A DNA stretch of 55,024 nt from Minisyncoccota bacterium (GTDB taxonomy: Bacteria > Patescibacteriota > Minisyncoccia > Phycocordibacterales > UBA918), in NCBI GenBank assembly GCA_937975855.1, contig CALJTT010000010.1, positions 1 through 55,024 of the forward strand, written 5' to 3'. Positions 31 through 55,024 of this stretch are shown here, in pieces (position 1 is the stretch's first letter; each line of letters starts with the position of its first letter). The position numbers and the translations under genes are program-made. The notes beneath the pieces were generated by a model. The model saw only the letters and a program-made list of their open reading frames with translations, did not search any database and was not told the origin of the DNA.

Positions 31-106
31 TGGGGCGACTACCGGGAATCGAACCCGAACTGCCGGTACCACAAACCGGTGCACTAACCGTTATACTATA
101 GTCGCC
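31..106 (-). tRNA. tRNA-His (anticodon GTG) with encoded G-1 and 3' CCA
   Basis: The reverse complement folds as a cloverleaf. Acceptor stem GCGACTA/TAGTCGC, with an extra 5' G opposite C73. D-stem GTAT/GTGC with a GG-containing loop. Anticodon stem CCGGT/ACCGG with loop TTGTGGT. T-arm TCGGG-TTCGATT-CCCGG. The sequence ends CCCA. Confidence 0.9.
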
Positions 107-19068: not shown

Positions 19069-19211
19069 TTAACCGATATTTATAAATGATTGTCCCCATT
19101 CCTTTGTAGTGCTTAGTTGAGAGTTACGTATTATCATATTGACCATGAGTAGTGGCATGTGTTTTCAGGCAACTGAACTATAATATAAGTATTAAAATAA
19201 TTTACGTTTAT

Positions 19212-20129
19212 ATGAACTTTAAGAACTTTTCATTTTTAATAGCTGGCGTTGTGCTCGCTGGTGCAGGTGCAGTTTATGCTGCTGCACCGTCAGGTGGGTA
19301 TGCACCGAACGCAACTCTAGATCCAGATTGTGCGCCTGGCGATGTTGATTGTTTTGTTAGTGCTACATCTACTGGTTCAGCTTGGAATAACGCTGACGGT
19401 TCTACAGCTGATGAGACTGGAAATATCAATTATACTGCCGGGCGAGTGACTCTTGGGGCGGTTGCAGGAGCAGTTGGTCATTTTAATGTTTATTCTCCAG
19501 CAGCTTCAGGTACTCCAAATATAGTTCTGGTAGATAACTCCGGGGGAGGTAATGCTGCCGCTGTGTCTGCATGGAAAACAGGACTTGGTTTTTGGGATTC
19601 TTCAGGTGATGCAGCAGCAGGTGTTGATCCAGATATGTACATAGGGATGCCAGGATATGTTGGTATTGGCACCGCATCACCTGAAGCAATTTTTGAGGTA
19701 GATGACGAAGGTATTACTTATCAGATAGCGGGAGCTTCTGCTGCTGATGGAAGAGGTTTTGTTATTAATGTTGATTCAGCACGTACTCCTGCCGGATGGG
19801 CACGAGGACTTACGTCGACTGTCGATGGTGTAAGTACAGCTCGATTTGGCATCAGAGGTGTCGGATCTACTACTAATTATGCTTTTATATCTGGTGATAA
19901 CACCCGTGCCTCAGTCAACAATGCGGACCTCGTAGTTCGTTCAGACACAGGAAATGTTGGTATTGGTGGTAAAGTGAATCCTGACGCCAAATTAGAAGTA
20001 GGGGGGTCAATAATAGTTGGTGATGGTGGAGAAACTTGTGATGGTGCAGTCCAAGGTGCTATCAAATACAACGCTGCTACAAACAAACACCAAGGTTGTG
20101 ACGGTACGTCCTGGAATGATCTCTACTAA
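19212..20129 (+). CDS. Secreted Gly/Ala/Asp-rich protein with Cys-bracketed C-terminal motif
   Basis: Signal peptide MNFKNFSFLIAGVVLAGAGAVYA after trimming to the ATG at 19212. The C-terminus reads GETCDGAVQGAIKYNAATNKHQGCDGTSWNDLY. Confidence 0.65.
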   Translation: MNFKNFSFLIAGVVLAGAGAVYAAAPSGGYAPNATLDPDCAPGDVDCFVSATSTGSAWNNADGSTADETGNINYTAGRVTLGAVAGAVGHFNVYSPAASGTPNIVLVDNSGGGNAAAVSAWKTGLGFWDSSGDAAAGVDPDMYIGMPGYVGIGTASPEAIFEVDDEGITYQIAGASAADGRGFVINVDSARTPAGWARGLTSTVDGVSTARFGIRGVGSTTNYAFISGDNTRASVNNADLVVRSDTGNVGIGGKVNPDAKLEVGGSIIVGDGGETCDGAVQGAIKYNAATNKHQGCDGTSWNDLY

Positions 20130-20175: not shown

Positions 20176-21714
20176 ATGAAACTACAGAAAATTCTCTTGC
20201 TGGCGGCTCTGGTTTTCTCGGGTAACGTTGCTTTTGCAGCACCGATAGACGCAACCGACCACTGGGCATGGGGGGAGGTATTAGGTTGGGTTAACTGGTT
20301 GCCAGCCAACACAACAGCGATCGATGTGACCGACACGAACATTACTGGTCAGATCTGGTCACAAAACCACGGCTGGATAAACTTGCAGCCAACGAACGCG
20401 GGTGTAACGAACACTTGTTCAGGTGATGTCAGTGGTTACGCTTGGGGTGAGAAAGTTGGTTACATCAATTTTGATGGAGTATCAATCGATCCTTCAACCG
20501 GAATCTTTTCCGGGACAGCGGCTGCGCCAGGTGGTTATGGTGACATCGTTTTTACGGGAACAAACATTGCGGTAAAAACTGACTGGAGATGTACTTCAAA
20601 TAGTGGAGGCTCTACCACTCGTGTAGGTAGCCGTAGCTCAAGCCCGAGCAATACTTCACCAGCACAAGATTCTGACAACGACGGTCTGACTGATGAAGAA
20701 GAAATCAACGACACAGGCACCGACCCATTTGACCCAGACACCGACGATGATGGTCTAGAGGACGGAGAAGAAGTTGACGAGCACGACACTGATCCGACGG
20801 ACCCAGACACTGACGGTGGTGGTATCAACGATGGCCAGGAAGTGAATCAGGGAACAGATCCTCTTGATGACGATAACGAGACTCTCACCGGGCCGGACTC
20901 TGACAACGACGGTTTGTCTGACGCAGCAGAAATTGCCATCGGTTCTGACCCAAACGATCCTGACTCTGACAACGACGGTCTAGACGACGGGGCCGAGGTC
21001 ATGCAGTACGGTACTGACCCGACTGACAAAGATACAGACAACGACGGTCTGACAGATGGTGACGAAGCAAACAGTCACCGAACTGATCCAAACGATCCTG
21101 ATACCGATGATGGTGGAATCAAGGACGGACAGGAAGTTAGTCAAGGTACAGACCCGCTAGACAAAGGTAACGAAGAGCGAGTTGTACGTTTAGTTACAAC
21201 TACGCCAGCAACAGAGTGTCCGTACTTCACTCAACACATGCGTGTAGGTGATCGAGACGGACAAATTGGTTCTTCAGCCCAAGAGGTGGGTGTTCCACCA
21301 ACTATCAACGAGGTTGCTAAGTTGCAACAAGTTCTCAAAGATCAAGGTCACTACGATGGACCGGTCACAGGTTACTTTGGTCCATTGACTAAAGTGGCGG
21401 TAAATAGTTGGCAGGTACAACACCGTCCGCAAGTACTTGATCCATGGAACCTAAGTGGACCGACGGGCTGGTTCTACAAGTCTTCAGAGCGGTGGATGAA
21501 CGAACTTCTCAACTGCCCAGACTCAGTGACATTAGATACCGGGTTATTCCTGCCAGCGGGGACGAATGCTGTCAGTTCATCAAACACTTTGGTGCCGCCG
21601 ACAATCCCAGCTGACCTAGACAGTTTGTCAGAAGGAGAGCGGTCAACTCTAATGGCCACACTACGAACATTCATCCAAGTCTTGCAAAAAAGACTAGCTG
21701 AATTGACTGGTTAG
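20176..21714 (+). CDS. Secreted protein with Trp-rich N-terminal repeats, thrombospondin type-3 (calcium-binding) repeats and a C-terminal peptidoglycan-binding domain
   Basis: 512 aa with a signal peptide. Three W-x-x-x-x-G-W/Y-I/V-N-F/W/L units. Seven DxDxDGxxDxxE units ([24 protein letters not shown], and others). PG_binding_1-like [19 protein letters not shown]. Confidence 0.8.
20668..21170 (+). repeat. Intragenic tandem TSP3-type repeats (about seven units)
   Basis: Recurring nucleotide core GA(C/T)(T/A)C(T/A)GACAACGACGGT encoding D-S/T-D-N-D-G. Confidence 0.8.
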
Positions 21715-21864: not shown

Positions 21865-24800
21865 ATGAATAAAAAAATGCATGGTCGTGAAAACGATAGT
21901 GTCGAAGTTGTAGATGTAGTAGAAAAGAGTGACGTTGCCCTGCGCGAAGAGGTTATTCTAGAATTCTGGCGTGAGCAGGATATTTTTAATAAAAGTGTGA
22001 TGGTGCCAGCCGGTGAATCACCTAAAAGGGATTTTGTATTTTACGACGGACCACCGTTTGCGACAGGTTTGCCGCACTACGGCCATATTTTGGCTGGAAC
22101 AATCAAGGACGCAATTCCGCGATTTTGGACAATGAACGGCTACCGTGTGCGCCGCAAGTGGGGGTGGGACTGTCATGGATTGCCGTTGGAGAATCTGATT
22201 GAAAAGAAGCTTGGCCTAGCGACTAAGCGCGATATCGAAGAGTACGGCGTACAGAACTTTAATGAGCAAGCGCGTGGGGCAGTAATGGAATACGCTGATG
22301 ACTGGAAACAAATCATCCCCCGTATGGGACGGTGGGCTGACATGGATAACGACTACAAGACCATGGACAGCACCTACACCGAGAGTGTGTGGTGGGTGTT
22401 CAAGCAGCTCCATGAAAAAGGTTTAGTATTTGAAGGATTCAAAACCATGCACCTGTGTCCACGCTGCGGGACAACTTTGAGTAACTTTGAGGTGAACCAG
22501 GGGTACAAAGATATCAAAGACATTGCGGTGACGGTGCCACTAAAACTAGTCGACGATGCCGACGACGCGTCGTTGTTAGTCTGGACTACAACACCGTGGA
22601 CTCTGCCAGGAAACTTGGCAGCGGCTGTGAACCAAGAGTTTGTTTACGTTAAAGTTCGAGTTACGCTGGATGGAAAAGAATGGGTGGTTATTTTGGCCAA
22701 AGAACGCTTGGCTCAATTAGGTGCGGAAGAATACGAGGTCATTGGCGAGATGAAGGGAAGTGATTTGGTCGGTAAAAAATACGAACCACCATTTCCATGG
22801 ATGGGCGAGCAGGATTTTGAAGGGAAGGAGAACGCCTGGCAAATTCTTCATGCGGACTATGTTGAAATCGGTACCGACGGAACTGGTGCTGTTCACATCG
22901 CTCCGGCGTTTGGTGAAGACGATATGATTTTGGCCAAAGAGCACGGTGTGCCGATTGTGCACCACGTTGACAATACCGGACATTTTAAAGATTGGGTGAC
23001 GGATTTTGCAGGTCAACTCGTTAAACCAAAAGACGACGACGAGTCTGGTGTTAGTCACCTCGATGCCGATATTGAAGTAGTCAAAGCTCTGAAAGCCGCT
23101 GGAAAATTATTCAAGAAAGAAAACATCACCCACAGTTATCCGCATTGCTGGCGGTGTGACACTCCACTGCTTAACTATGCGACGACGTCGTGGTTTGTAG
23201 ATGTGCCAAGCATCAAAGACCAGCTGGTCGCAAATAATGACAAGGTAAAGTGGGTGCCGGAACACGTCGGAACAAATCGCTTTGGCAAGTGGCTGGAAGG
23301 AGCTCGCGACTGGGCGGTGTCACGACAGCGTTACTGGGGAGCGCCGCTGCCGATTTGGAAGAATCCCGAAACCAAAGAATACAAAGTGATGGGGAGTCTG
23401 GAAGACATGAAAGAATACGTACCAAAAAGCGGCAACCAGTACTTTGTCATGCGACATGGCGAAAGCGAGAGTAACGTCGCAGCGGTGATTAGTGCGAACA
23501 TCGACAATGATGACTCGATTACAGATACTGGAAAAGAACAAGTGCAGGAGACGGCCGCAGAATTAAAAGACAAAAAAATCGATCTCATTATCGCTTCGCC
23601 ATTTATGCGTACGCGGCAGACTGCTGAGTTGGTTCGCGACGAACTTGGGATAACCGCAGACGCGCTGGTGTTTGATGAACGGATTCGTGAATATGACTTG
23701 GCCGATGAATTTGAAGGAAAGAAGTGGCAGAGGGATTACTCTCAAGCAAACTTCGCCACCTGGGAAGAAAGATTTACCAAAGAACTGCCAGATTCAGAAA
23801 ACCGGCGTGATGTGATGAAGCGCATGGGGGAGTTCTTGTACGATGTTGAACAAACTCACAAAGGGAAGAATATTTTGATCGTTAGTCATGGTGGACCGAT
23901 AGCGACTTTGCGCGCTGTAGTGTCAGGTTGGAATATCGAACAACAAAAGGCAGACTATGACACAGATAGGTATTTCTTAAACGCACAGTGGCAGCAGTTG
24001 GATTTTGTCCCATTGCCTCACAACGACAACTACGAACTAGATTTTCATCGACCTTATATTGACGATGTTGTTTTGGAAGAAGACGGAGTAAAGCTTGAAC
24101 GCGTACCCGACGTGTTTGATTGTTGGTTTGAAAGTGGCTCGATGCCGTACGGCCAGCGACACTTTATGGGTGAGGCACAGAGTGATTTTGATCCGGAGAA
24201 TGGCGTTGGGTTACCGGCGCAGTTTATTGCTGAGGGGCTCGACCAGACTCGCGGCTGGTTCTACTCACTGATCGTGTTGGGCACTGCCTTGTTTGGCAAG
24301 TCTCCGTACGAGAATGTGATTGTAAACGGGCTCGTGTTGGCCGAAGACGGTAAGAAGATGTCAAAAAAGCTACAAAACTACCCGGACCCAATAGAACTGG
24401 CTGATCGAACGGGTGTAGACGCGATGCGATTTTATTTACTTTCTTCATCACTGATGCGAGGCGAAGATCTCAACTTCTCAGAGAAAGAAGTGCTCGAATT
24501 ACAACGAAAAAACATCGGACGACTGCACAACGTTCTCGCGATGTACGAGATATTCGCTGATGGTACCGAAGCTCGGGCTGACTCGGACCACGTGTTGGAC
24601 CGGTGGATCGTGGCGAGACTACAGCAGCTGGTAAACGAGACAACTGCTGGATACAAGTCATACGAACTCGACAAAGCGACGCGGCCAGTCACCGATTTTA
24701 TCGACGACCTATCGGTGTGGTATTTGCGGCGTAGTCGAGATCGACTAAAGAGCGACGACGAGATCGACAAGACTTTGGCGCTCGCGACTTTGCGTCATGT

Positions 24801-25401
24801 GTTGCACACGTTGTCATTAGTGATGGCGCCTGCGATGCCGTTTTATGCCGAACATCTGTGGTGTTCTGTGTGTGAAGAAGATGACGCGGAGAGCGTTCAT
24901 CTGGCTGCCTGGCCAACTGAAGGTGTGGTCGATGAATCTGTGTTGGAAAAGATGGTGGCGACTCGTGACATCGTGACGCAAGCACTCGAGGCTCGAACCA
25001 AAGCCAACATCAAAGTCCGACAGCCGATTGTGTCAGTGTCAGGACCCGAGCTGCCGGATGACTTGCAGCAGATCGTGCTCGACGAACTTAATGCAAAGTC
25101 GTATCAAACTGCAGACAACATTTCGATCGACACTAACCTCACGGATGAGCTTATTGCTGAAGGTGCTGTCCGCGAGCTGATGCGTGCGGTACAAGGAAAA
25201 CGAAAGAAAGAAGGACTAGAACCACATGACGACATTGTTTTGACAGTTCAAACTGCTGATGTTGGGAAAGGGGCGATTGAAGCGCACAAAGAATTACTCG
25301 TCAGTACTGTCGGTGCTACTGATCTACAATTTGCTGCTACTGACGGGGAAGAATTAGTTGTAGGAGATTATCAGTTTACGTTTAGCTTTGAAAAGAAATA
25401 A
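21865..25401 (+). CDS. ileS: Isoleucyl-tRNA synthetase with an internal histidine-phosphatase domain
   Basis: 1178 aa. HIGH (PHYGHILAG), CP1 editing domain (TTTPWTLPGN), Zn knuckles CPRC and CWRC, SRQRYWGAPLPIW, DCWFESGSMP and KMSKS (KKMSKK). An additional ~200-aa domain is inserted at aa ~524-722. Confidence 0.93.
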   Translation: MNKKMHGRENDSVEVVDVVEKSDVALREEVILEFWREQDIFNKSVMVPAGESPKRDFVFYDGPPFATGLPHYGHILAGTIKDAIPRFWTMNGYRVRRKWGWDCHGLPLENLIEKKLGLATKRDIEEYGVQNFNEQARGAVMEYADDWKQIIPRMGRWADMDNDYKTMDSTYTESVWWVFKQLHEKGLVFEGFKTMHLCPRCGTTLSNFEVNQGYKDIKDIAVTVPLKLVDDADDASLLVWTTTPWTLPGNLAAAVNQEFVYVKVRVTLDGKEWVVILAKERLAQLGAEEYEVIGEMKGSDLVGKKYEPPFPWMGEQDFEGKENAWQILHADYVEIGTDGTGAVHIAPAFGEDDMILAKEHGVPIVHHVDNTGHFKDWVTDFAGQLVKPKDDDESGVSHLDADIEVVKALKAAGKLFKKENITHSYPHCWRCDTPLLNYATTSWFVDVPSIKDQLVANNDKVKWVPEHVGTNRFGKWLEGARDWAVSRQRYWGAPLPIWKNPETKEYKVMGSLEDMKEYVPKSGNQYFVMRHGESESNVAAVISANIDNDDSITDTGKEQVQETAAELKDKKIDLIIASPFMRTRQTAELVRDELGITADALVFDERIREYDLADEFEGKKWQRDYSQANFATWEERFTKELPDSENRRDVMKRMGEFLYDVEQTHKGKNILIVSHGGPIATLRAVVSGWNIEQQKADYDTDRYFLNAQWQQLDFVPLPHNDNYELDFHRPYIDDVVLEEDGVKLERVPDVFDCWFESGSMPYGQRHFMGEAQSDFDPENGVGLPAQFIAEGLDQTRGWFYSLIVLGTALFGKSPYENVIVNGLVLAEDGKKMSKKLQNYPDPIELADRTGVDAMRFYLLSSSLMRGEDLNFSEKEVLELQRKNIGRLHNVLAMYEIFADGTEARADSDHVLDRWIVARLQQLVNETTAGYKSYELDKATRPVTDFIDDLSVWYLRRSRDRLKSDDEIDKTLALATLRHVLHTLSLVMAPAMPFYAEHLWCSVCEEDDAESVHLAAWPTEGVVDESVLEKMVATRDIVTQALEARTKANIKVRQPIVSVSGPELPDDLQQIVLDELNAKSYQTADNISIDTNLTDELIAEGAVRELMRAVQGKRKKEGLEPHDDIVLTVQTADVGKGAIEAHKELLVSTVGATDLQFAATDGEELVVGDYQFTFSFEKK
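23434..24030 (+). other. Histidine phosphatase (phosphoglycerate-mutase-like, branch 1) domain embedded in ileS
   Basis: YFVMRHGESESN (RHGxxxxN), ASPFMRTRQTA (second Arg) and LIVSHGGPI (second catalytic His). It is in frame and flanked on both sides by IleRS core motifs. Confidence 0.75.
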
Positions 25402-25403
25402 GT

Positions 25404-25781
25404 ATGAGGCTTCATCATATTGCTCTAGCTGTCGCAGATGTTGATGCTAGCGCTGCTTGGTACGGCGAATATTTTTCTTTTAAGGAATTGCACCGATATG
25501 AAAAAGGCGGCAAAACATTTTGCATGATTGATTGTGATGGGTTTCGCCTGGAATTAATTTCTGGCGATGATACCCAGGATCTCGCAAAAGCCCAATCAGC
25601 CACCCCGCGCTGGATGCGACATTTTTGTATCGAGGTTGAACGTTTAGATGAGATATTCAACCGCTTATCTGGCGCTGGCGTAACGATTGAAAAAGAATTA
25701 ACCGAAGCAGGATTCGGTGGACGTTATTTCTTTGTATCTGATGTAGATGGAAATATGATTGAGGTTTGGTCTAACGCATAA
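25404..25781 (+). CDS. VOC/glyoxalase-family protein
   Basis: 125 aa. MRLHHIALAVADVDASAAWY and RHFCIEV ... VSDVDGNMIEV show the paired beta-alpha-beta-beta-beta module pattern. Confidence 0.8.
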   Translation: MRLHHIALAVADVDASAAWYGEYFSFKELHRYEKGGKTFCMIDCDGFRLELISGDDTQDLAKAQSATPRWMRHFCIEVERLDEIFNRLSGAGVTIEKELTEAGFGGRYFFVSDVDGNMIEVWSNA

Positions 25782-26395: not shown

Positions 26396-28402
26396 ATGAC
26401 TGACGTACACGACAGCGAAGAACTGCGAGCCTTGCGGCGCAAGCTATACGCGCGCAGCAGCGCAGCAAATTCTGTTCAACAACACGAACTCAGTAACCCT
26501 GAGGTCGATGTTTCGCGTAACTGGAATTTACCTAATCAACCGCAACCCCAAGTTCAGGCACAACCGCAGCCGCAAGTCGTCACTCCAGCACCCGCCGCCG
26601 CCCAGCCTACACAAGTAACTTCACCCGTCACCCGACCGCAAGAATCGGTTGTAGAAAACGCTCCGGCTGCCCCGGCCCCAGTCAAGCGTAGACGCCGTTA
26701 CCGTACGTTTATTCTGATCGCTAGTTTGCTGGTATTTATATTTGGCGTCGGTCTGTCTAGTTTGTACCTATACATGGGCGGCAATCAGATCTCTAGTGCT
26801 CAGATCGATATTGACCTGCAAGGTCCATTTACCATAGGTGGTGGAGAAGTTCTAAAGATGCAGGTTTCTCTAGGTAATCAAAACACCGTACCGATCGAGT
26901 CGGCTACATTAGTAATGAAGTATCCGCCAGGCACGCGGTCTGTTGGCGAGGCTCCACGGAACTTGTTTGAAGAACGCATTCCGATTCGCAACATCGCACC
27001 AAACGAATATCGAAACGTGCCGGTTAGCGTCATTGTTTTTGGGGAAGAACAAAGTGAACAAAACATCAGCGCAACTATCGAATATCGTATAGCTGGTTCT
27101 AGCGGAACTTTCTACAAAGACGCTGAGCCACTGAAATTTAGCATCAGTTCGTCGCCGTTGTTGGTGCGACTTGAAAGTGTCGAAAAGGTTGCCTCAGGCC
27201 AAACTGTCGACGTGACCATGACGTTAGTTTCAAACGCCTCGTCTCCACTGAAAGACATCCTAGTGAGTGCCGAATATCCCAACGGGTTCCGATTCGAATC
27301 AGCTGATCCTTCGCCAGTGTTTGGACAAAACGTGTGGCGGGTGGACGAACTGTTGCCACAAGAGTCAAAGACGATCACCTTGACCGGTGTAGTACTTGGG
27401 CTGACCGAAGAAACATTCCGGATCAACGTCGACGCTGGTCCAGCGCTGCCAGACAATCCATTTATAGTTGGCTCGGTTTTGGCCGAGACAGGAATCGACT
27501 TCTTTATCGAACGACCGTTTATTAATGTTGTCACCAAAATAAATGGTGATAGTAATAGCACCCATGTTCTTGAACAAGATGAAACTTCTAGAGTTGATGT
27601 TCTGGTGACCAATACACTCGAAGAGACGGTGTACGACATGTTTGTTGAAGTCATTCCCGGCGGTAACGTGCTTGACGAGCAATCGATCTCTGCAGGCAGC
27701 GGATTTTATGATTCTAACTCGGGGACAGTTCAGTGGCGAGTAGCAAACAACAGTACGTTTGCCGTCATTCGCCCGGGGGAAACACGGTCCCTCTCGTTTG
27801 GCGTTCGAACTGCCGAAGTGCAGTCAACAGCCGCTTATGACCTGGTAGTCAACGTCTACGCTCGTAGGGTAGCCGAGCGCAGCGCGTCAGAGCAGTTGAT
27901 CGGTACAGCACAAACCGGCGTCAAATTTTCTTCAGAAATATTTACCGGCAGCCAGGTAGGACGCAATGATGCAGGCCTAAGCGATCGGGGCCCAATTCCG
28001 CCTAAAGTTGGCGAAGAGACAACATACACCCTGACCATGGTGGCCGAGGCCGGGGTGAATGATATTGTTGACGTAATTGGTAACGCCTCACTACCAGTCC
28101 ATGTAAAATGGCTGAACTCTGTTGAGGGTGATGGTGACTTGGTCTTTAACCCAGTTTCCAAACAACTTGAATGGAAAGCCGGAAATATTTTATCTAAGGC
28201 ACGCAAACAAGTATCGTTCCAAGTTGCAATAACGCCCAGCACCTCGCAAGTTGGTTCGTCACCAACGCTTATGAATAGTCAGACGCTGCGGGCAACGGAT
28301 CGCTTTACAGACGCTCGATTGCAGTCAAGTGCAGGGCCGGTGTACACTGAACTTTCAACTGAGGCTGGTTTTGAAGAGGAAAATGGTAAAGTGCAGCGGT
28401 AA
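26396..28402 (+). CDS. Single-pass membrane protein with a large beta-rich ectodomain
   Basis: 668 aa. PQ-rich low-complexity N-terminus (QPQPQVQAQPQPQVV), RRRRYR followed by a TM helix (TFILIASLLVFIFGVGLSSLYLYM), then ~530 aa without a catalytic motif. Confidence 0.68.
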   Translation: MTDVHDSEELRALRRKLYARSSAANSVQQHELSNPEVDVSRNWNLPNQPQPQVQAQPQPQVVTPAPAAAQPTQVTSPVTRPQESVVENAPAAPAPVKRRRRYRTFILIASLLVFIFGVGLSSLYLYMGGNQISSAQIDIDLQGPFTIGGGEVLKMQVSLGNQNTVPIESATLVMKYPPGTRSVGEAPRNLFEERIPIRNIAPNEYRNVPVSVIVFGEEQSEQNISATIEYRIAGSSGTFYKDAEPLKFSISSSPLLVRLESVEKVASGQTVDVTMTLVSNASSPLKDILVSAEYPNGFRFESADPSPVFGQNVWRVDELLPQESKTITLTGVVLGLTEETFRINVDAGPALPDNPFIVGSVLAETGIDFFIERPFINVVTKINGDSNSTHVLEQDETSRVDVLVTNTLEETVYDMFVEVIPGGNVLDEQSISAGSGFYDSNSGTVQWRVANNSTFAVIRPGETRSLSFGVRTAEVQSTAAYDLVVNVYARRVAERSASEQLIGTAQTGVKFSSEIFTGSQVGRNDAGLSDRGPIPPKVGEETTYTLTMVAEAGVNDIVDVIGNASLPVHVKWLNSVEGDGDLVFNPVSKQLEWKAGNILSKARKQVSFQVAITPSTSQVGSSPTLMNSQTLRATDRFTDARLQSSAGPVYTELSTEAGFEEENGKVQR

Positions 28403-53870: not shown

Positions 53871-54319
53871 ATATATGGAGGTGCGCGCTGTTTGACAGAC
53901 ATCATGAGTGAAAGTCCTTAGAGAATTTATTCTCGGGAGACTGATCAAGTGATGGTTGTATGCTAGTCATACAATTGCATAGACAGGAGATGGATTGATA
54001 AGGTCCGTCTCCGAGAAAGTCCTACCCGGAATCGACGCCGGGTAGGCGATTCCGCATATCCTACCGGATATGCGGAGTAGGTAAGTCTGTCTGGATTAGA
54101 TCCCAAAAAGAATGGCACACTGTCATTTTTCATTCACCTCCCAGGTGAATGAAAGGTCTTTTCGTCCCAGACAGACAAACAAAACGTCGTGAGCGTTTAC
54201 GCTCACGACAGACCGGAGTATGTATCTCCGGTCGACACTCAAAATTGTACAGCGGTGTACAGCGTGACTGTAGTGAATGTTGATCGACTAGGTTTCGACC
54301 TGGCCGTGTATAACGTTCC

Positions 54320-55024
<705 letters not shown>

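What the first reader, a model, noticed from the sequence alone, without database searches (positions are those of the whole stretch)
23434..24030. Complete histidine-phosphatase (PGAM-like) domain inserted in the catalytic core of isoleucyl-tRNA synthetase
ORF 21865-25401 has every IleRS landmark: HIGH PHYGHILAG, CP1 TTTPWTLPGN, Zn knuckles CPRC/CWRC, KMSKS KKMSKK, and an anticodon-binding C-terminus. However, it is 1178 aa long.

The extra length lies between SRQRYWGAPLPIW (aa ~486-498) and HRPYIDD...DCWFESGSMP (aa ~728-760). From memory, E. coli and S. aureus IleRS have roughly 60-75 residues in this interval. Here aa ~524-722 read as an intact branch-1 histidine phosphatase, with YFVMRHGESESN (RHGxxxxN), ASPFMRTRQTA and LIVSHGGPI. 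The frame is continuous with no stop codon or frameshift.

I am not aware of a described aminoacyl-tRNA synthetase with an embedded His-phosphatase fold. The insertion point lies in the Rossmann-fold half that faces the tRNA 3' end. Plausible roles (inference) include:
- repair of 3'-phosphate or 2',3'-cyclic-phosphate tRNA ends
- hydrolysis of a nucleotide by-product or alarmone
- detoxification of a phosphorylated Ile-AMP mimic
Basis: partly seen in the sequence, partly recalled or inferred. Interest (0 to 1): 0.78.

Follow-up and report, generated by a model that had tools for sequence, protein, structure and literature searches.

The report
Phosphatase domain nested inside isoleucyl-tRNA synthetase
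The isoleucyl-tRNA synthetase of this tiny-genome (CPR/Parcubacteria) bacterium carries a complete histidine phosphatase, apparently active, inside a variable loop of its catalytic body; hundreds of related species share this, nobody appears to have described it, and its substrate is unknown.

Summary
ORF 21865-25401 (+) encodes an intact type-2 (eukaryote-like) IleRS of 1178 aa. About 206 extra residues (aa 519-724) lie where yeast IleRS has about 6.

The extra residues are a complete His_Phos_1 domain (PF00300, E=2e-31). AlphaFold gives it pLDDT 94. Its nearest structures are roughly 200-aa metabolite phosphatases (GpgP, PspA, PhoE, CobC). It sits in the middle of the CP3 subdomain.

It is not an assembly chimera. 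All 120 closest homologues carry it, as do at least 380 species-representative Patescibacteria genomes, in a conserved ileS-recO neighbourhood. R530, H531, R582, E609 and H675 are invariant, although the insert is the least conserved part of the protein.

New here:
- Other CPR IleRS carry 2 tandem copies, or copies at three other positions.
- One IleRS also carries a GNAT and a RAYT domain.
- ValRS homologues, the named ones labelled Gracilibacteria or Peregrinibacteria, acquired 1-4 His_Phos domains independently, nearly all at the same CP3 site.

No literature was found on this. The substrate is unknown. My best guess is a tethered small-molecule phosphomonoesterase. A role acting on the synthetase's own chemistry or on the tRNA 3' end is not excluded. 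I rate it a new variant of a known kind.

The parts
21865..25401 (+). ileS: type-2 isoleucyl-tRNA synthetase with a nested phosphatase, 1178 aa. The public gene call starts at the second ATG, 21877, giving 1174 aa.
   Evidence: ORF. TIGR00392 scores 859 bits against a cut-off of 621. The best solved relatives are yeast and human cytosolic IleRS, then T. thermophilus IleRS.
22072..22098 (+). HIGH signature region, PHYGHILAG (aa 70-78)
   Evidence: Read directly from the translation. Invariant in 99 homologues.
22495..23154 (+). CP1 editing domain (about aa 211-430), with TTTPWTLPGN (aa 241-250) and GTGAVHIAPAFGEDD (aa 339-353)
   Evidence: Matches isolated IleRS editing-domain structures 1wk8 and 1ue0 over aa 213-427. 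Motif positions.
23302..23418 (+). CP2-CP3 linker ARDWAVSRQRYWG followed by the N-terminal half of CP3 (APLPIWKNPETKEYKVMGSLEDMKEY), aa 480-518
   Evidence: Aligns to ScIleRS up to residue 491. CP3 is ScIleRS 459-526, and linker 453-465 lines the tRNA/reveromycin pocket (PMC7955072).
23419..24036 (+). Inserted module, aa 519-724: a complete His_Phos_1 domain plus its two junction peptides (VPKSGN... and ...PLPHNDNYE)
   Evidence: Absent from yeast, human and T. thermophilus IleRS. PF00300 E=2e-31. AlphaFold pLDDT 93.9 and pTM 0.91 for the module alone; above 90 within the full-length model, junctions included. Foldseek TM 0.70-0.75 to GpgP, PspA, PhoE and CobC.
23452..23457 (+). R530-H531 of the RHG motif. 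H531 is the predicted phospho-accepting nucleophile.
   Evidence: Invariant in 120 close homologues, in 30 diverse ones and in 80 genome loci. Aligns to the RHx motif of 9mmh, PspA and PhoE.
23608..23610 (+). R582, the second phosphate-binding arginine (SPFMRTRQTA)
   Evidence: Invariant.
23689..23691 (+). E609, the predicted general acid/base (DERIREY), followed by the phosphatase-type motif EFEGK
   Evidence: Invariant. Aligns to lREihLGD-WEGK of PhoE.
23887..23889 (+). H675, the second catalytic histidine (LIVSHGG)
   Evidence: Invariant. The residues that follow vary (HGG, HNS, HAG, HDY), unlike the HGN of cofactor-dependent mutases.
24016..24024 (+). P718-H719-N720, a junction motif specific to the IleRS-nested form
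   Evidence: 97-100% conserved. Absent from stand-alone relatives and from IleRS whose CP3 is empty.
24037..24153 (+). C-terminal half of CP3 (LDFHRPYIDD...) and the return to the Rossmann fold (DCWFESGSMPYG), aa 725-763
   Evidence: Alignment to yeast IleRS resumes at residue 498. Invariant motifs.
24349..24372 (+). KMSKS loop, GKKMSKKL (aa 829-836)
   Evidence: Read directly. Aligns to GRKMSKSL of yeast IleRS.
24598..25029 (+). Anticodon-binding helical domain (aa 912-1055)
   Evidence: PF08264, E=2e-30.
25117..25395 (+). C-terminal IleRS-type domain (DUF5915, aa 1085-1177)
   Evidence: PF19302, E=2e-14.

Best explanation
This gene is most likely the organism's main, housekeeping isoleucyl-tRNA synthetase. 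It is a type-2 enzyme from a Parcubacteria-group (Kaiserbacteria-like) CPR bacterium, and it is bifunctional.

**Anatomy (confidence about 0.9).**
- The synthetase part is complete: HIGH, KMSKS, the CP1 editing site and the anticodon domain are all intact. It should charge tRNA-Ile in the normal way.
- Its CP3 subdomain is a small surface module that varies between lineages. It connects CP2 to the second Rossmann half. In this enzyme it has been split open and hosts a whole histidine phosphatase of about 200 aa, of the PhoE/PspA/GpgP/CobC class.

**Chemistry (inferred from the family).**
- H531 attacks a terminal phosphoryl group that is held by R530, R582 and H675.
- E609 protonates the leaving group and then activates water to release phosphate.

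**Role (inferred; this step alone has confidence about 0.4).**
- The substrate is a soluble phosphomonoester, such as a metabolite or a nucleotide, not tRNA and not an isoleucine-specific compound.
- Nesting the domain in an essential, constitutively expressed enzyme gives the reduced genome a phosphatase that is always made along with the synthetase.
- CP3 is used because it is the most tolerant loop in class Ia synthetases.

**Shown here:** the domain's identity, its fold, the intact catalytic set, the position, the breadth of conservation and the recurrence in other proteins.

**Inferred:** that the domain is active, what its substrate class is, and that it is not directly coupled to aminoacylation.
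For: **Identity and position.**

**Fold and nearest relatives.**
- The module alone models at pLDDT 93.9.
- Foldseek's best matches are all roughly 200-aa metabolite phosphatases at TM 0.70-0.75: Rv2419c (GpgP), H. thermophilus PspA, riboflavin-pathway HFP 9mmh, PhoE and CobC.
- Sequence search gives the same ranking.

**Selection for catalysis.**
- R530, H531, N537, R582, E609 and H675 are invariant in 120 homologues, although the insert has the lowest mean column identity of any region (0.60, against 0.84-0.89 in the Rossmann parts).
- The same residues are conserved at 35-77% overall identity and in 80 species genomes.
- Every tandem or extra copy keeps them.
- dN across the insert is 0.20-0.45 while dS is saturated.

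**Real, orthologous and probably the main ileS.**
- All 120 best homologues carry PF00300, on contigs up to 1 Mb.
- At least 380 GTDB species genomes carry it.
- The order ileS, recO, DUF11-protein gene is kept in 66-67 of 80 loci.

**Tethering matters more than exact geometry.**
- IleRS variants carry the domain at four positions: in CP3; inside the CP3 zinc knuckle; after WFESGSMPY; and after the stem-contact (SC) fold.
- Copy number ranges from 1 to 4.

**Unlikely to bind RNA.** Net charge is -14 in the window and the median is -6.5 over 72 inserts.

**This clade routinely fuses unrelated small enzymes to tRNA-related enzymes.** TsaC is found fused to MGMT, TruB, GNAT, NUDIX, a 2H cyclic phosphodiesterase (CPDase), MPG or His_Phos.
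Against: - Nested insertion is a much rarer mutation than end-to-end fusion. Even so, His_Phos entered the same CP3 site independently in IleRS (Parcubacteria group) and in ValRS (named hits: Gracilibacteria, Peregrinibacteria). That looks like selection for this position, which begins right after the linker lining the tRNA CCA-end pocket.
- Among the 150 closest representatives of the insert, the only multidomain hosts are IleRS, ValRS and TsaC, apart from one two-domain tandem His_Phos protein. All three make an adenylate from ATP and release pyrophosphate. A pure hitch-hiker would be expected in more kinds of host.
- Both junctions are predicted with high confidence. This suggests a rigid mount, not a loose tether.
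- No substrate has been identified, and no enzyme assay exists.
Confidence: 0.42

Rival explanations
1. tRNA-end service. The phosphatase removes a 3'(2')-phosphate or pyrophosphate from the CCA end of tRNA, so that a damaged tRNA becomes chargeable on the same enzyme. Such ends could arise from RNase cleavage or from toxSAS/CapRel-type pyrophosphorylation (the latter recalled from memory).
For: - CP3 starts directly after the CP2-CP3 linker, which lines the tRNA CCA/reveromycin pocket.
- The same CP3 site was used independently in ValRS.
- Both junctions are predicted to be rigid.
- A terminal ribose phosphate is a phosphomonoester, the chemistry this fold performs.
- The HD domain of the E. 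coli CCA-adding enzyme is a precedent (recalled from memory).
Against: - The domain is acidic, with net charge -14 and a family median of -6.5.
- Other insertion positions lie far along the sequence, after the SC fold at about aa 900 and before CP2 in ValRS, and copy number is 2-4.
- The nearest structural relatives all act on small molecules.
- By the fold's topology, the active site lies at the C-terminal ends of the strands. That is the side away from the N-terminal junction (inference).
Confidence: 0.15
2. By-product removal. The domain hydrolyses a product of adenylate chemistry next to the site where that product is made, pulling activation and editing cycles forward. Candidate substrates are pyrophosphate, AMP or a related nucleotide.
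For: - All three host enzymes found (IleRS, ValRS and TsaC) convert ATP to an acyl- or carbamoyl-adenylate plus pyrophosphate.
- IleRS and ValRS both burn ATP in editing cycles (established knowledge).
- Histidine phosphatases can cleave a terminal phosphoanhydride, as the PPIP5K/Asp1 phosphatase domain does (branch 2; recalled from memory).
Against: - The TsaC-His_Phos fusion is rare, with only 4 clusters, and TsaC is fused far more often to unrelated enzymes such as MGMT.
- No branch-1 enzyme of this subclass is known to me as a pyrophosphatase.
- Other aminoacyl-tRNA synthetases would benefit equally, yet none turned up.
Confidence: 0.12
3. Protein phosphatase. The domain removes a phosphate from the synthetase itself or from a partner protein. 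One target could be the KMSKS-loop serine, since HipA and HipT kinases inactivate GltX and TrpS in that way (recalled from memory). This would give built-in immunity or regulation.
For: - Branch-1 family members include protein phosphatases: SixA, PGAM5 and Sts-1 (established knowledge).
- SixA gives a sub-threshold match, 39-43 bits.
- The KMSKS loop here contains a serine, KKMSKK.
- All the insertion positions are in or next to the catalytic body.
Against: - SixA membership fails, at 43 bits against a cut-off of 74.5.
- The best structural matches are metabolite phosphatases.
- No kinase is linked to the gene in the conserved neighbourhood.
- No kinase that targets IleRS or ValRS is known to me.
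Confidence: 0.08
4. Hidden glycolytic enzyme. The insert supplies a phosphoglycerate mutase or another core metabolic phosphatase step that appears to be missing from some Parcubacteria genomes.
For: [quoted passage not shown]
- The best NCBIfam match for the insert is the archaeal dPGM model.
Against: - That match is 86-91 bits against a cut-off of 225, and pgm_1 scores 33.5 against 81.7.
- The motif after E609 is the phosphatase type, EFEGK as in PhoE, not the mutase type.
- The residues after H675 vary, whereas mutases have a fixed HGN.
Confidence: 0.07
5. Non-catalytic module. The domain is kept as a structural or ligand-sensing element of CP3 and no longer hydrolyses anything.
For: - CP3 is structurally variable between lineages (PMC7191050).
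- The junction motifs N524 and P718-H719-N720 are highly conserved.
Against: - All five catalytic residues are invariant across hundreds of sequences at 35-100% identity, and in every extra copy, while the rest of the domain drifts.
Confidence: 0.05
6. Artefact. The insert results from an assembly chimera or a sequencing frameshift that joined two genes.
For: None found.
Against: - The same architecture appears in 120 of 120 closest homologues from independent projects, and in at least 380 species genomes, including contigs of 0.65-1 Mb.
- GC content is uniform across the gene.
- The reading frame is continuous.
Confidence: 0.01

Closest known systems
Type-2 (eukaryote/archaea-like) IleRS, e.g. 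S. cerevisiae IleRS (7D5C, 8WND), T. thermophilus IleRS (1ILE), and MupA/MupB
   Same: - Full-length collinear similarity at E around 1e-200.
- Same HIGH and KMSKS motifs, CP1 editing motifs, CP2-CP3 linker and anticodon domain.
   Different: - About 206 extra residues forming a whole enzyme domain sit in the middle of CP3, where the yeast enzyme has about 6 residues.
- This CP3 has no zinc knuckle, unlike T. thermophilus IleRS and unlike CPR IleRS with an empty CP3.
Small branch-1 histidine phosphatases: PhoE (1H2E), PspA/iPSP1 (4IJ5), GpgP Rv2419c (4QIH), CobC (6E4B), riboflavin-pathway HFP (9MMH)
   Same: - Same fold, at TM 0.70-0.75.
- Same size, about 200 aa.
- Same catalytic R-H...R...E...H set and the same G-x-[WF]-E-G motif.
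   Different: - Only 22-26% identity.
- It passes none of the curated equivalog cut-offs.
- It is nested inside another enzyme instead of standing alone.
- It has its own junction motif, PHN.
NCBIfam NF040702, 'isoleucine--tRNA ligase, N-acetyltransferase domain-containing'
   Same: A curated precedent for an IleRS that carries an extra enzyme domain. One CPR IleRS found here (P0252) carries both a His_Phos and a GNAT domain.
   Different: The window protein has no GNAT domain and scores 322 bits against a cut-off of 1999. It is not a member.
ValRS with CP3-nested His_Phos; the named hits are labelled Gracilibacteria or Peregrinibacteria
   Same: The same kind of domain sits at the homologous position, between W-x-ISRQ-xx-WG and DTWFSS, in the sister class Ia synthetase. 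Copy number is 1-4.
   Different: - The host enzyme and the lineage are different.
- These inserts score only about 69 bits against the IleRS-insert profile, while stand-alone relatives score 146-186. This points to an independent acquisition.
Bifunctional RNase H / CobC-type acid phosphatase (Rv2228c type, NF005567)
   Same: A small branch-1 phosphatase is joined to an enzyme that acts on nucleic acids. The insert matches the phosphatase half of that model.
   Different: That is an end-to-end fusion, not a nested insertion. The score is 72-76 bits against a cut-off of 326.
HD domain of the E. coli CCA-adding enzyme (2',3'-cyclic phosphodiesterase / phosphatase); recalled from memory
   Same: It is a tRNA 3'-end enzyme with an attached phosphatase activity. 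It serves as the model for the tRNA-repair rival explanation.
   Different: The fold is unrelated (HD) and the activity is metal-dependent. The comparison is an analogy only and was not tested here.

Membership tests
Isoleucyl-tRNA synthetase (TIGR00392 ileS equivalog) | Whole-protein score above the curated cut-off | tested here: met
   859 bits against 621.4.
Isoleucyl-tRNA synthetase (TIGR00392 ileS equivalog) | Class I signature motifs HIGH and KMSKS | tested here: met
   PHYGHILAG at aa 70-78 and KKMSKK at aa 830-835.
Isoleucyl-tRNA synthetase (TIGR00392 ileS equivalog) | CP1 editing domain with its Thr-rich motif and its GTG-x-VH-x-AP...DD motif | tested here: met
   TTTPWTLPGN and GTGAVHIAPAFGEDD are present. 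The region matches editing-domain structures 1wk8 and 1ue0.
Isoleucyl-tRNA synthetase (TIGR00392 ileS equivalog) | Aminoacylation of tRNA-Ile | not testable with these tools
   This needs an enzyme assay. Indirect support comes from the conserved ileS-recO synteny and the very high conservation of the catalytic core.
Type-2 (eukaryote-like) IleRS | Closer to eukaryotic, archaeal and MupA/MupB enzymes than to type-1 bacterial IleRS | tested here: met
   Yeast and human IleRS at E about 1e-208, T. thermophilus at 4e-186, S. aureus type 1 at 3.5e-88. MupA and MupB are the next-best NCBIfam models.
Histidine phosphatase superfamily, branch 1 (PF00300) | Score above the Pfam gathering threshold | tested here: met
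   110-114 bits against 21.7.
Histidine phosphatase superfamily, branch 1 (PF00300) | Catalytic set: RHG histidine, two arginines, glutamate and a second histidine | tested here: met
   R530, H531, R582, E609 and H675 are present and invariant.
Histidine phosphatase superfamily, branch 1 (PF00300) | The alpha/beta phosphoglycerate-mutase-like fold | tested here: met
   AlphaFold pLDDT 93.9. Foldseek probability 1.00 and TM 0.70-0.75 to PspA, GpgP, PhoE and CobC.
Histidine phosphatase superfamily, branch 1 (PF00300) | Phosphatase activity through a phospho-histidine intermediate | not testable with these tools
   This needs an assay of the recombinant protein and of the H531A mutant.
Cofactor-dependent phosphoglycerate mutase (dPGM) | Curated model cut-off and mutase-type motifs | tested here: not met
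   dPGM_arch scores 86-91 bits against 225, and pgm_1 scores 33.5 against 81.7. The motif after E609 is the phosphatase type.
SixA phosphohistidine phosphatase | TIGR00249 cut-off | tested here: not met
   39-43 bits against 74.5, and only the N-terminal third matches.
CobC alpha-ribazole phosphatase / PspA phosphoserine phosphatase | Equivalog cut-offs | tested here: not met
   TIGR03162 scores 73-78 bits against 162.9. NF045917 scores 65-69 against 350.
IleRS with GNAT domain (NF040702) | Model cut-off and presence of a GNAT domain | tested here: not met
   322 bits against 1999, with no acetyltransferase Pfam hit.
Intein (considered because of the invariant H-N at the C-terminal junction) | Hint domain, a Cys/Ser N-terminal nucleophile, and HN followed by Cys, Ser or Thr | tested here: not met
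   There is no Hint or intein Pfam hit. The residue after N720 is Asp. The segment is a complete phosphatase fold.

The most novel reading that the evidence does not exclude
The CP3-nested histidine phosphatase works together with the synthetase active site. It would either clear a phosphate or pyrophosphate block from the tRNA 3' end, or hydrolyse a product of adenylate chemistry. This would make it a previously unrecognised 'self-servicing' class Ia synthetase that CPR bacteria evolved at least twice, once in IleRS and once in ValRS.
Probability: 0.25. Interest if true: 0.85.

Novelty: new variant of a known kind. Interest (0 to 1): 0.68.

Why it matters
**What is unusual.** Aminoacyl-tRNA synthetases are among the best-studied enzymes. 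Their known nested domains are editing modules or RNA-binding modules. Here a second enzyme with unrelated chemistry, apparently active, sits inside the catalytic body of an essential synthetase. It is conserved across a large part of the Parcubacteria group, in at least 380 species genomes. The sister enzyme ValRS acquired the same kind of domain independently at the same CP3 site in other CPR lineages.

**If the two activities are coupled,** this would be a new way of linking aminoacylation to tRNA-end repair or to nucleotide and pyrophosphate turnover.

**If they are not coupled,** it is a clear case of how genome-reduced symbionts pack unrelated functions into essential genes.

**Practical consequences.**
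- It identifies CP3 as a permissive insertion site that protein engineers could use.
- Automatic annotation mislabels these genes. The NCBI names seen for them were 'class I tRNA ligase family protein' or 'hypothetical protein', while JGI calls several of them isoleucyl-tRNA synthetase.
- Metabolic reconstructions of CPR genomes may miss a phosphatase that is hidden inside ileS or valS.

Tried and rejected
- **dN/dS for the insert against the rest of the gene** (window against L001, L002, L003 and L005). Synonymous sites are saturated, so only dN could be reported.
- **Neighbour-joining tree of His_Phos copies** (nested at each site, tandem, and stand-alone). Branches are too long and the tree is unresolved. 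I relied on profile scores instead.
- **Synteny, as a source of a functional partner.** Only the housekeeping order ileS, recO, DUF11-protein gene is conserved. The glyoxalase/VOC gene directly downstream is absent from all 80 related loci.
- **Leader RNA upstream of ileS.** Rfam finds only a tRNA and the 23S rRNA in the window.
- **Intein idea**, prompted by the invariant H-N at the junction. Rejected: no Hint domain, and the next residue is Asp.
- **Link to phage defence.** No PADLOC family matches the insert.
- **A second His_Phos gene in the window.** None found.
- **Orientation of the phosphatase pocket relative to the aminoacylation site.** The full-length AlphaFold model ran (pLDDT 78, pTM 0.63), but coordinates are not returned, so the geometry stays unknown.
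- **Literature.** Five full-text searches on the architecture returned nothing relevant. A search on CPR and pyrophosphatase gave nothing usable.
- **Could not be done: per-genome census.** I could not check whether there is a single ileS, or whether gpmI, apgM, ppa or a stand-alone His_Phos is present, because whole genomes cannot be fetched here.


Full report
**1. Observation**

The window holds a continuous ORF at 21865-25401 (+) of 1178 aa. It matches the curated IleRS model TIGR00392 at 859 bits, against a cut-off of 621.
- HIGH, PHYGHILAG: aa 70-78
- Zinc-knuckle-like CPRC and CWRC
- Editing motifs TTTPWTLPGN and GTGAVHIAPAFGEDD
- SRQRYWGAPLPIW: aa 486-498
- DCWFESGSMPYG: aa 752-763
- KMSKS loop KKMSKK: aa 830-835
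- Anticodon_1 domain

Pfam finds His_Phos_1 (PF00300) at aa 527-693 with E=2e-31. The closest solved relatives are yeast and human cytosolic IleRS (E about 1e-208), then T. thermophilus IleRS. S. aureus type-1 IleRS is far weaker. The enzyme is therefore type 2.

Yeast IleRS aligns to aa 27-518 and resumes at aa 725, with only residues 491-498 of its own in between. The extra material is a clean block of about 206 aa, aa 519-724 (23419-24036). GC content does not change across it.

**2. It is real and old**

- All 120 best database homologues (65-84% identity) carry PF00300. They come from several sequencing sources, on contigs up to 1 Mb. Where named, they are labelled Kaiserbacteria or Parcubacteria.
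- I scanned one genome per GTDB species with an alignment of the insert.
- All 80 loci returned are Patescibacteria MAGs: Kaiser-, Nomura-, Taylor- and Wolfebacteria, Paceibacteria, Parcubacteria and Minisyncoccia. A block is labelled 'uncultured Ca. Saccharibacteria' by one bulk project; I could not verify that label.
- In these loci the ileS reading frame is continuous through a single copy of the insert.
- The order ileS, recO, DUF11-protein gene is kept in 66-67 of 80 loci.

Together this excludes a chimera. It also argues that this is the lineage's orthologous, housekeeping ileS.

**3. The domain looks catalytically competent**

- Among the 120 homologues the insert is the least conserved region, with mean column identity 0.60 against 0.84-0.89 for the Rossmann parts.
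- Even so, N524, R530, H531, N537, T553, G556, R582, E609, E645, R653 and H675 are invariant.
- The same core survives in 30 sequences at only 34-77% identity and in 80 species genomes.
- Alignment to PhoE, PspA and the riboflavin-pathway phosphatase 9mmh places R530/H531 on the RHG motif. It places E609 on the acid/base glutamate, followed by the phosphatase-type G-x-[WF]-E-G motif. It places H675 on the second histidine.
- AlphaFold models the module at pLDDT 93.9.
- Foldseek's best matches are all roughly 200-aa metabolite phosphatases at TM 0.70-0.75 and 22-26% identity: GpgP Rv2419c, PspA, HFP 9mmh, PhoE and CobC.
- It passes none of the curated sub-family cut-offs: dPGM, SixA, CobC or PspA.

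It is a member of the superfamily, but its specificity is unassigned.

**4. Where it sits**

Published domain boundaries for ScIleRS place CP3 at residues 459-526. They describe the preceding linker, 453-ARDWNVSRNRYWG-465, as part of the pocket that binds reveromycin and the tRNA CCA end (PMC7955072). CP3 has a different architecture in each solved IleRS: beta-beta-alpha-alpha in C. albicans, a zinc-binding form in T. thermophilus and a three-helix form in S. aureus (PMC7191050).

The insert splits CP3 at yeast residues 491/498, which is in its middle. In the full-length AlphaFold model (pLDDT 78, pTM 0.63) the insert and both junctions have pLDDT of about 85-97. This suggests a rigid mount. 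Coordinates are not returned, so I cannot say which way the pocket faces.

**5. A wider pattern, found here**

I searched 1.8 billion representative proteins with the insert. Besides many single-insert IleRS, this returned:
- IleRS with two tandem copies in CP3 (P0188, P0269, P0231).
- IleRS whose CP3 is an ordinary, empty zinc knuckle, but which carry a copy after WFESGSMPY and another after the SC fold at about aa 900 (P0189, P0264).
- IleRS with one copy in CP3 and a second after the SC fold (P0202, P0258).
- One IleRS with the domain inside the zinc knuckle and a second copy after WFESGSMPY (P0237).
- One IleRS (P0252) with a His_Phos in CP3, a GNAT domain after WFESGSMPY, and a REP-associated tyrosine transposase domain inside CP1.

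Every copy keeps the catalytic residues.

P0121 turned out to be a ValRS with four copies. Of its 119 listed homologues, 70 carry 1-3 His_Phos domains; the few that are named are labelled Gracilibacteria or Peregrinibacteria. Nearly all these domains lie between W-x-ISRQ-xx-WG and DTWFSS, which is the homologous CP3 site.

These ValRS inserts score only about 69 bits against the IleRS-insert profile. Stand-alone proteins of about 190 aa score 146-186 bits. The ValRS event is therefore independent. A Nomurabacteria ValRS (P0375, 931 aa) has no insert.

A rare TsaC-His_Phos fusion also exists, in 4 clusters. TsaC in these bacteria is fused much more often to MGMT. It is also found fused to TruB, GNAT, NUDIX, a 2H phosphodiesterase or MPG.

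**6. Mechanism**

The anatomy is secure: a normal type-2 IleRS plus a phosphatase that should form a phospho-H531 intermediate. The substrate is not known.

I favour a soluble phosphomonoester and no direct coupling to aminoacylation (about 0.4). My reasons:
- The nearest relatives act on small molecules.
- The domain is acidic, with net charge -14 and a median of -6.5 over 72 inserts.
- Position and copy number vary.
- The clade habitually fuses unrelated small enzymes to tRNA-related enzymes.

Three observations argue against this view:
- The same CP3 site was used independently in two paralogous synthetases.
- The hosts are restricted to three adenylate-forming enzymes.
- The junctions are predicted to be rigid.

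These keep a cis-acting role alive, at a combined probability of about 0.25. That role could be repair of the tRNA 3' end or removal of pyrophosphate or nucleotides. Less likely alternatives are:
- a protein-phosphatase role;
- a hidden phosphoglycerate mutase, since PGM is reported missing in some Parcubacteria (PMC7304191), although the mutase criteria fail;
- a non-catalytic role, which the invariant catalytic set contradicts.

**7. Novelty**

Five full-text searches found no paper that links IleRS or any aminoacyl-tRNA synthetase with a histidine phosphatase domain. Databases record the Pfam architecture automatically. The NCBI names seen for these proteins were 'class I tRNA ligase family protein' or 'hypothetical protein', while JGI calls several of them isoleucyl-tRNA synthetase. 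NCBIfam has a curated IleRS-with-GNAT model, so synthetases with extra enzyme domains are a known kind of thing. This protein is not a member of that family.

I rate it a new variant of a known kind. It is widespread, conserved, convergent and uncharacterised.

**8. Verdict**

- The structural interpretation is supported and refined: the insert is in CP3, the enzyme is type 2, and the feature is clade-wide.
- The proposed functions are untested. The isoleucine-specific one is weakened by the parallel in ValRS.
- Interest: 0.68.

Noticed in passing
P0121 and its homologues P0271-P0389 (no window coordinates): ValRS proteins carry 1-4 His_Phos_1 domains nested at the CP3 site homologous to the one in this IleRS; the few named ones are labelled Gracilibacteria or Peregrinibacteria. 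They appear to have acquired the domain independently. A few also have a copy before the W-x-ISRQ motif.
   Followed up: partly
P0252 (a representative IleRS, 1066 aa, truncated): One IleRS has three foreign domains in frame. A REP-associated tyrosine transposase (IS200-like Y1) domain sits inside the CP1 editing domain. A His_Phos sits in CP3. A GNAT acetyltransferase follows WFESGSMPY.
   Followed up: partly
P0219 and P0390-P0506 (TsaC/YrdC homologues from CPR): The threonylcarbamoyl-AMP synthase TsaC of Paceibacteria/Minisyncoccia is fused to many different small enzymes. MGMT (PF01035) is by far the most common partner. Others are TruB, His_Phos (4 clusters), GNAT, NUDIX, 2H cyclic phosphodiesterase and methylpurine glycosylase.
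   Followed up: partly
window 25404-25781 (+): A glyoxalase/VOC-family gene of 125 aa starts 2 nt after the ileS stop codon, between ileS and recO. It is absent from this position in all 80 related loci, so it is a recent insertion specific to this lineage.
   Followed up: partly
window 20176-21714 (+) and 19152-20129 (+): Two predicted secreted proteins lie directly upstream of ileS. One has six bacterial TSP3 calcium-binding repeats and a peptidoglycan-binding domain. The other, of 325 aa, has no Pfam match.
   Followed up: partly
window 26396-28402 (+): A 668-aa protein with a Pro/Gln-rich N-terminus, a likely membrane anchor and a DUF11 domain is syntenic with ileS-recO in 66 of 80 related genomes. 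Its function is unknown.
   Followed up: no
window 31-105 (-) and 54319-55024 (+): tRNA-His (GTG) lies at one end of the contig. The first 608 nt of a 23S rRNA gene run off the other end. No 16S rRNA gene is detected upstream of the 23S within the window.
   Followed up: no
window 24016-24024 (+) and 23434-23436 (+): The junction residues P718-H719-N720 are 97-100% conserved and are found only in the IleRS-nested form. N524, also invariant, is shared with stand-alone relatives as an N-x-Y motif before RHG. The role of the PHN motif is unexplained; it is not an intein.
   Followed up: partly
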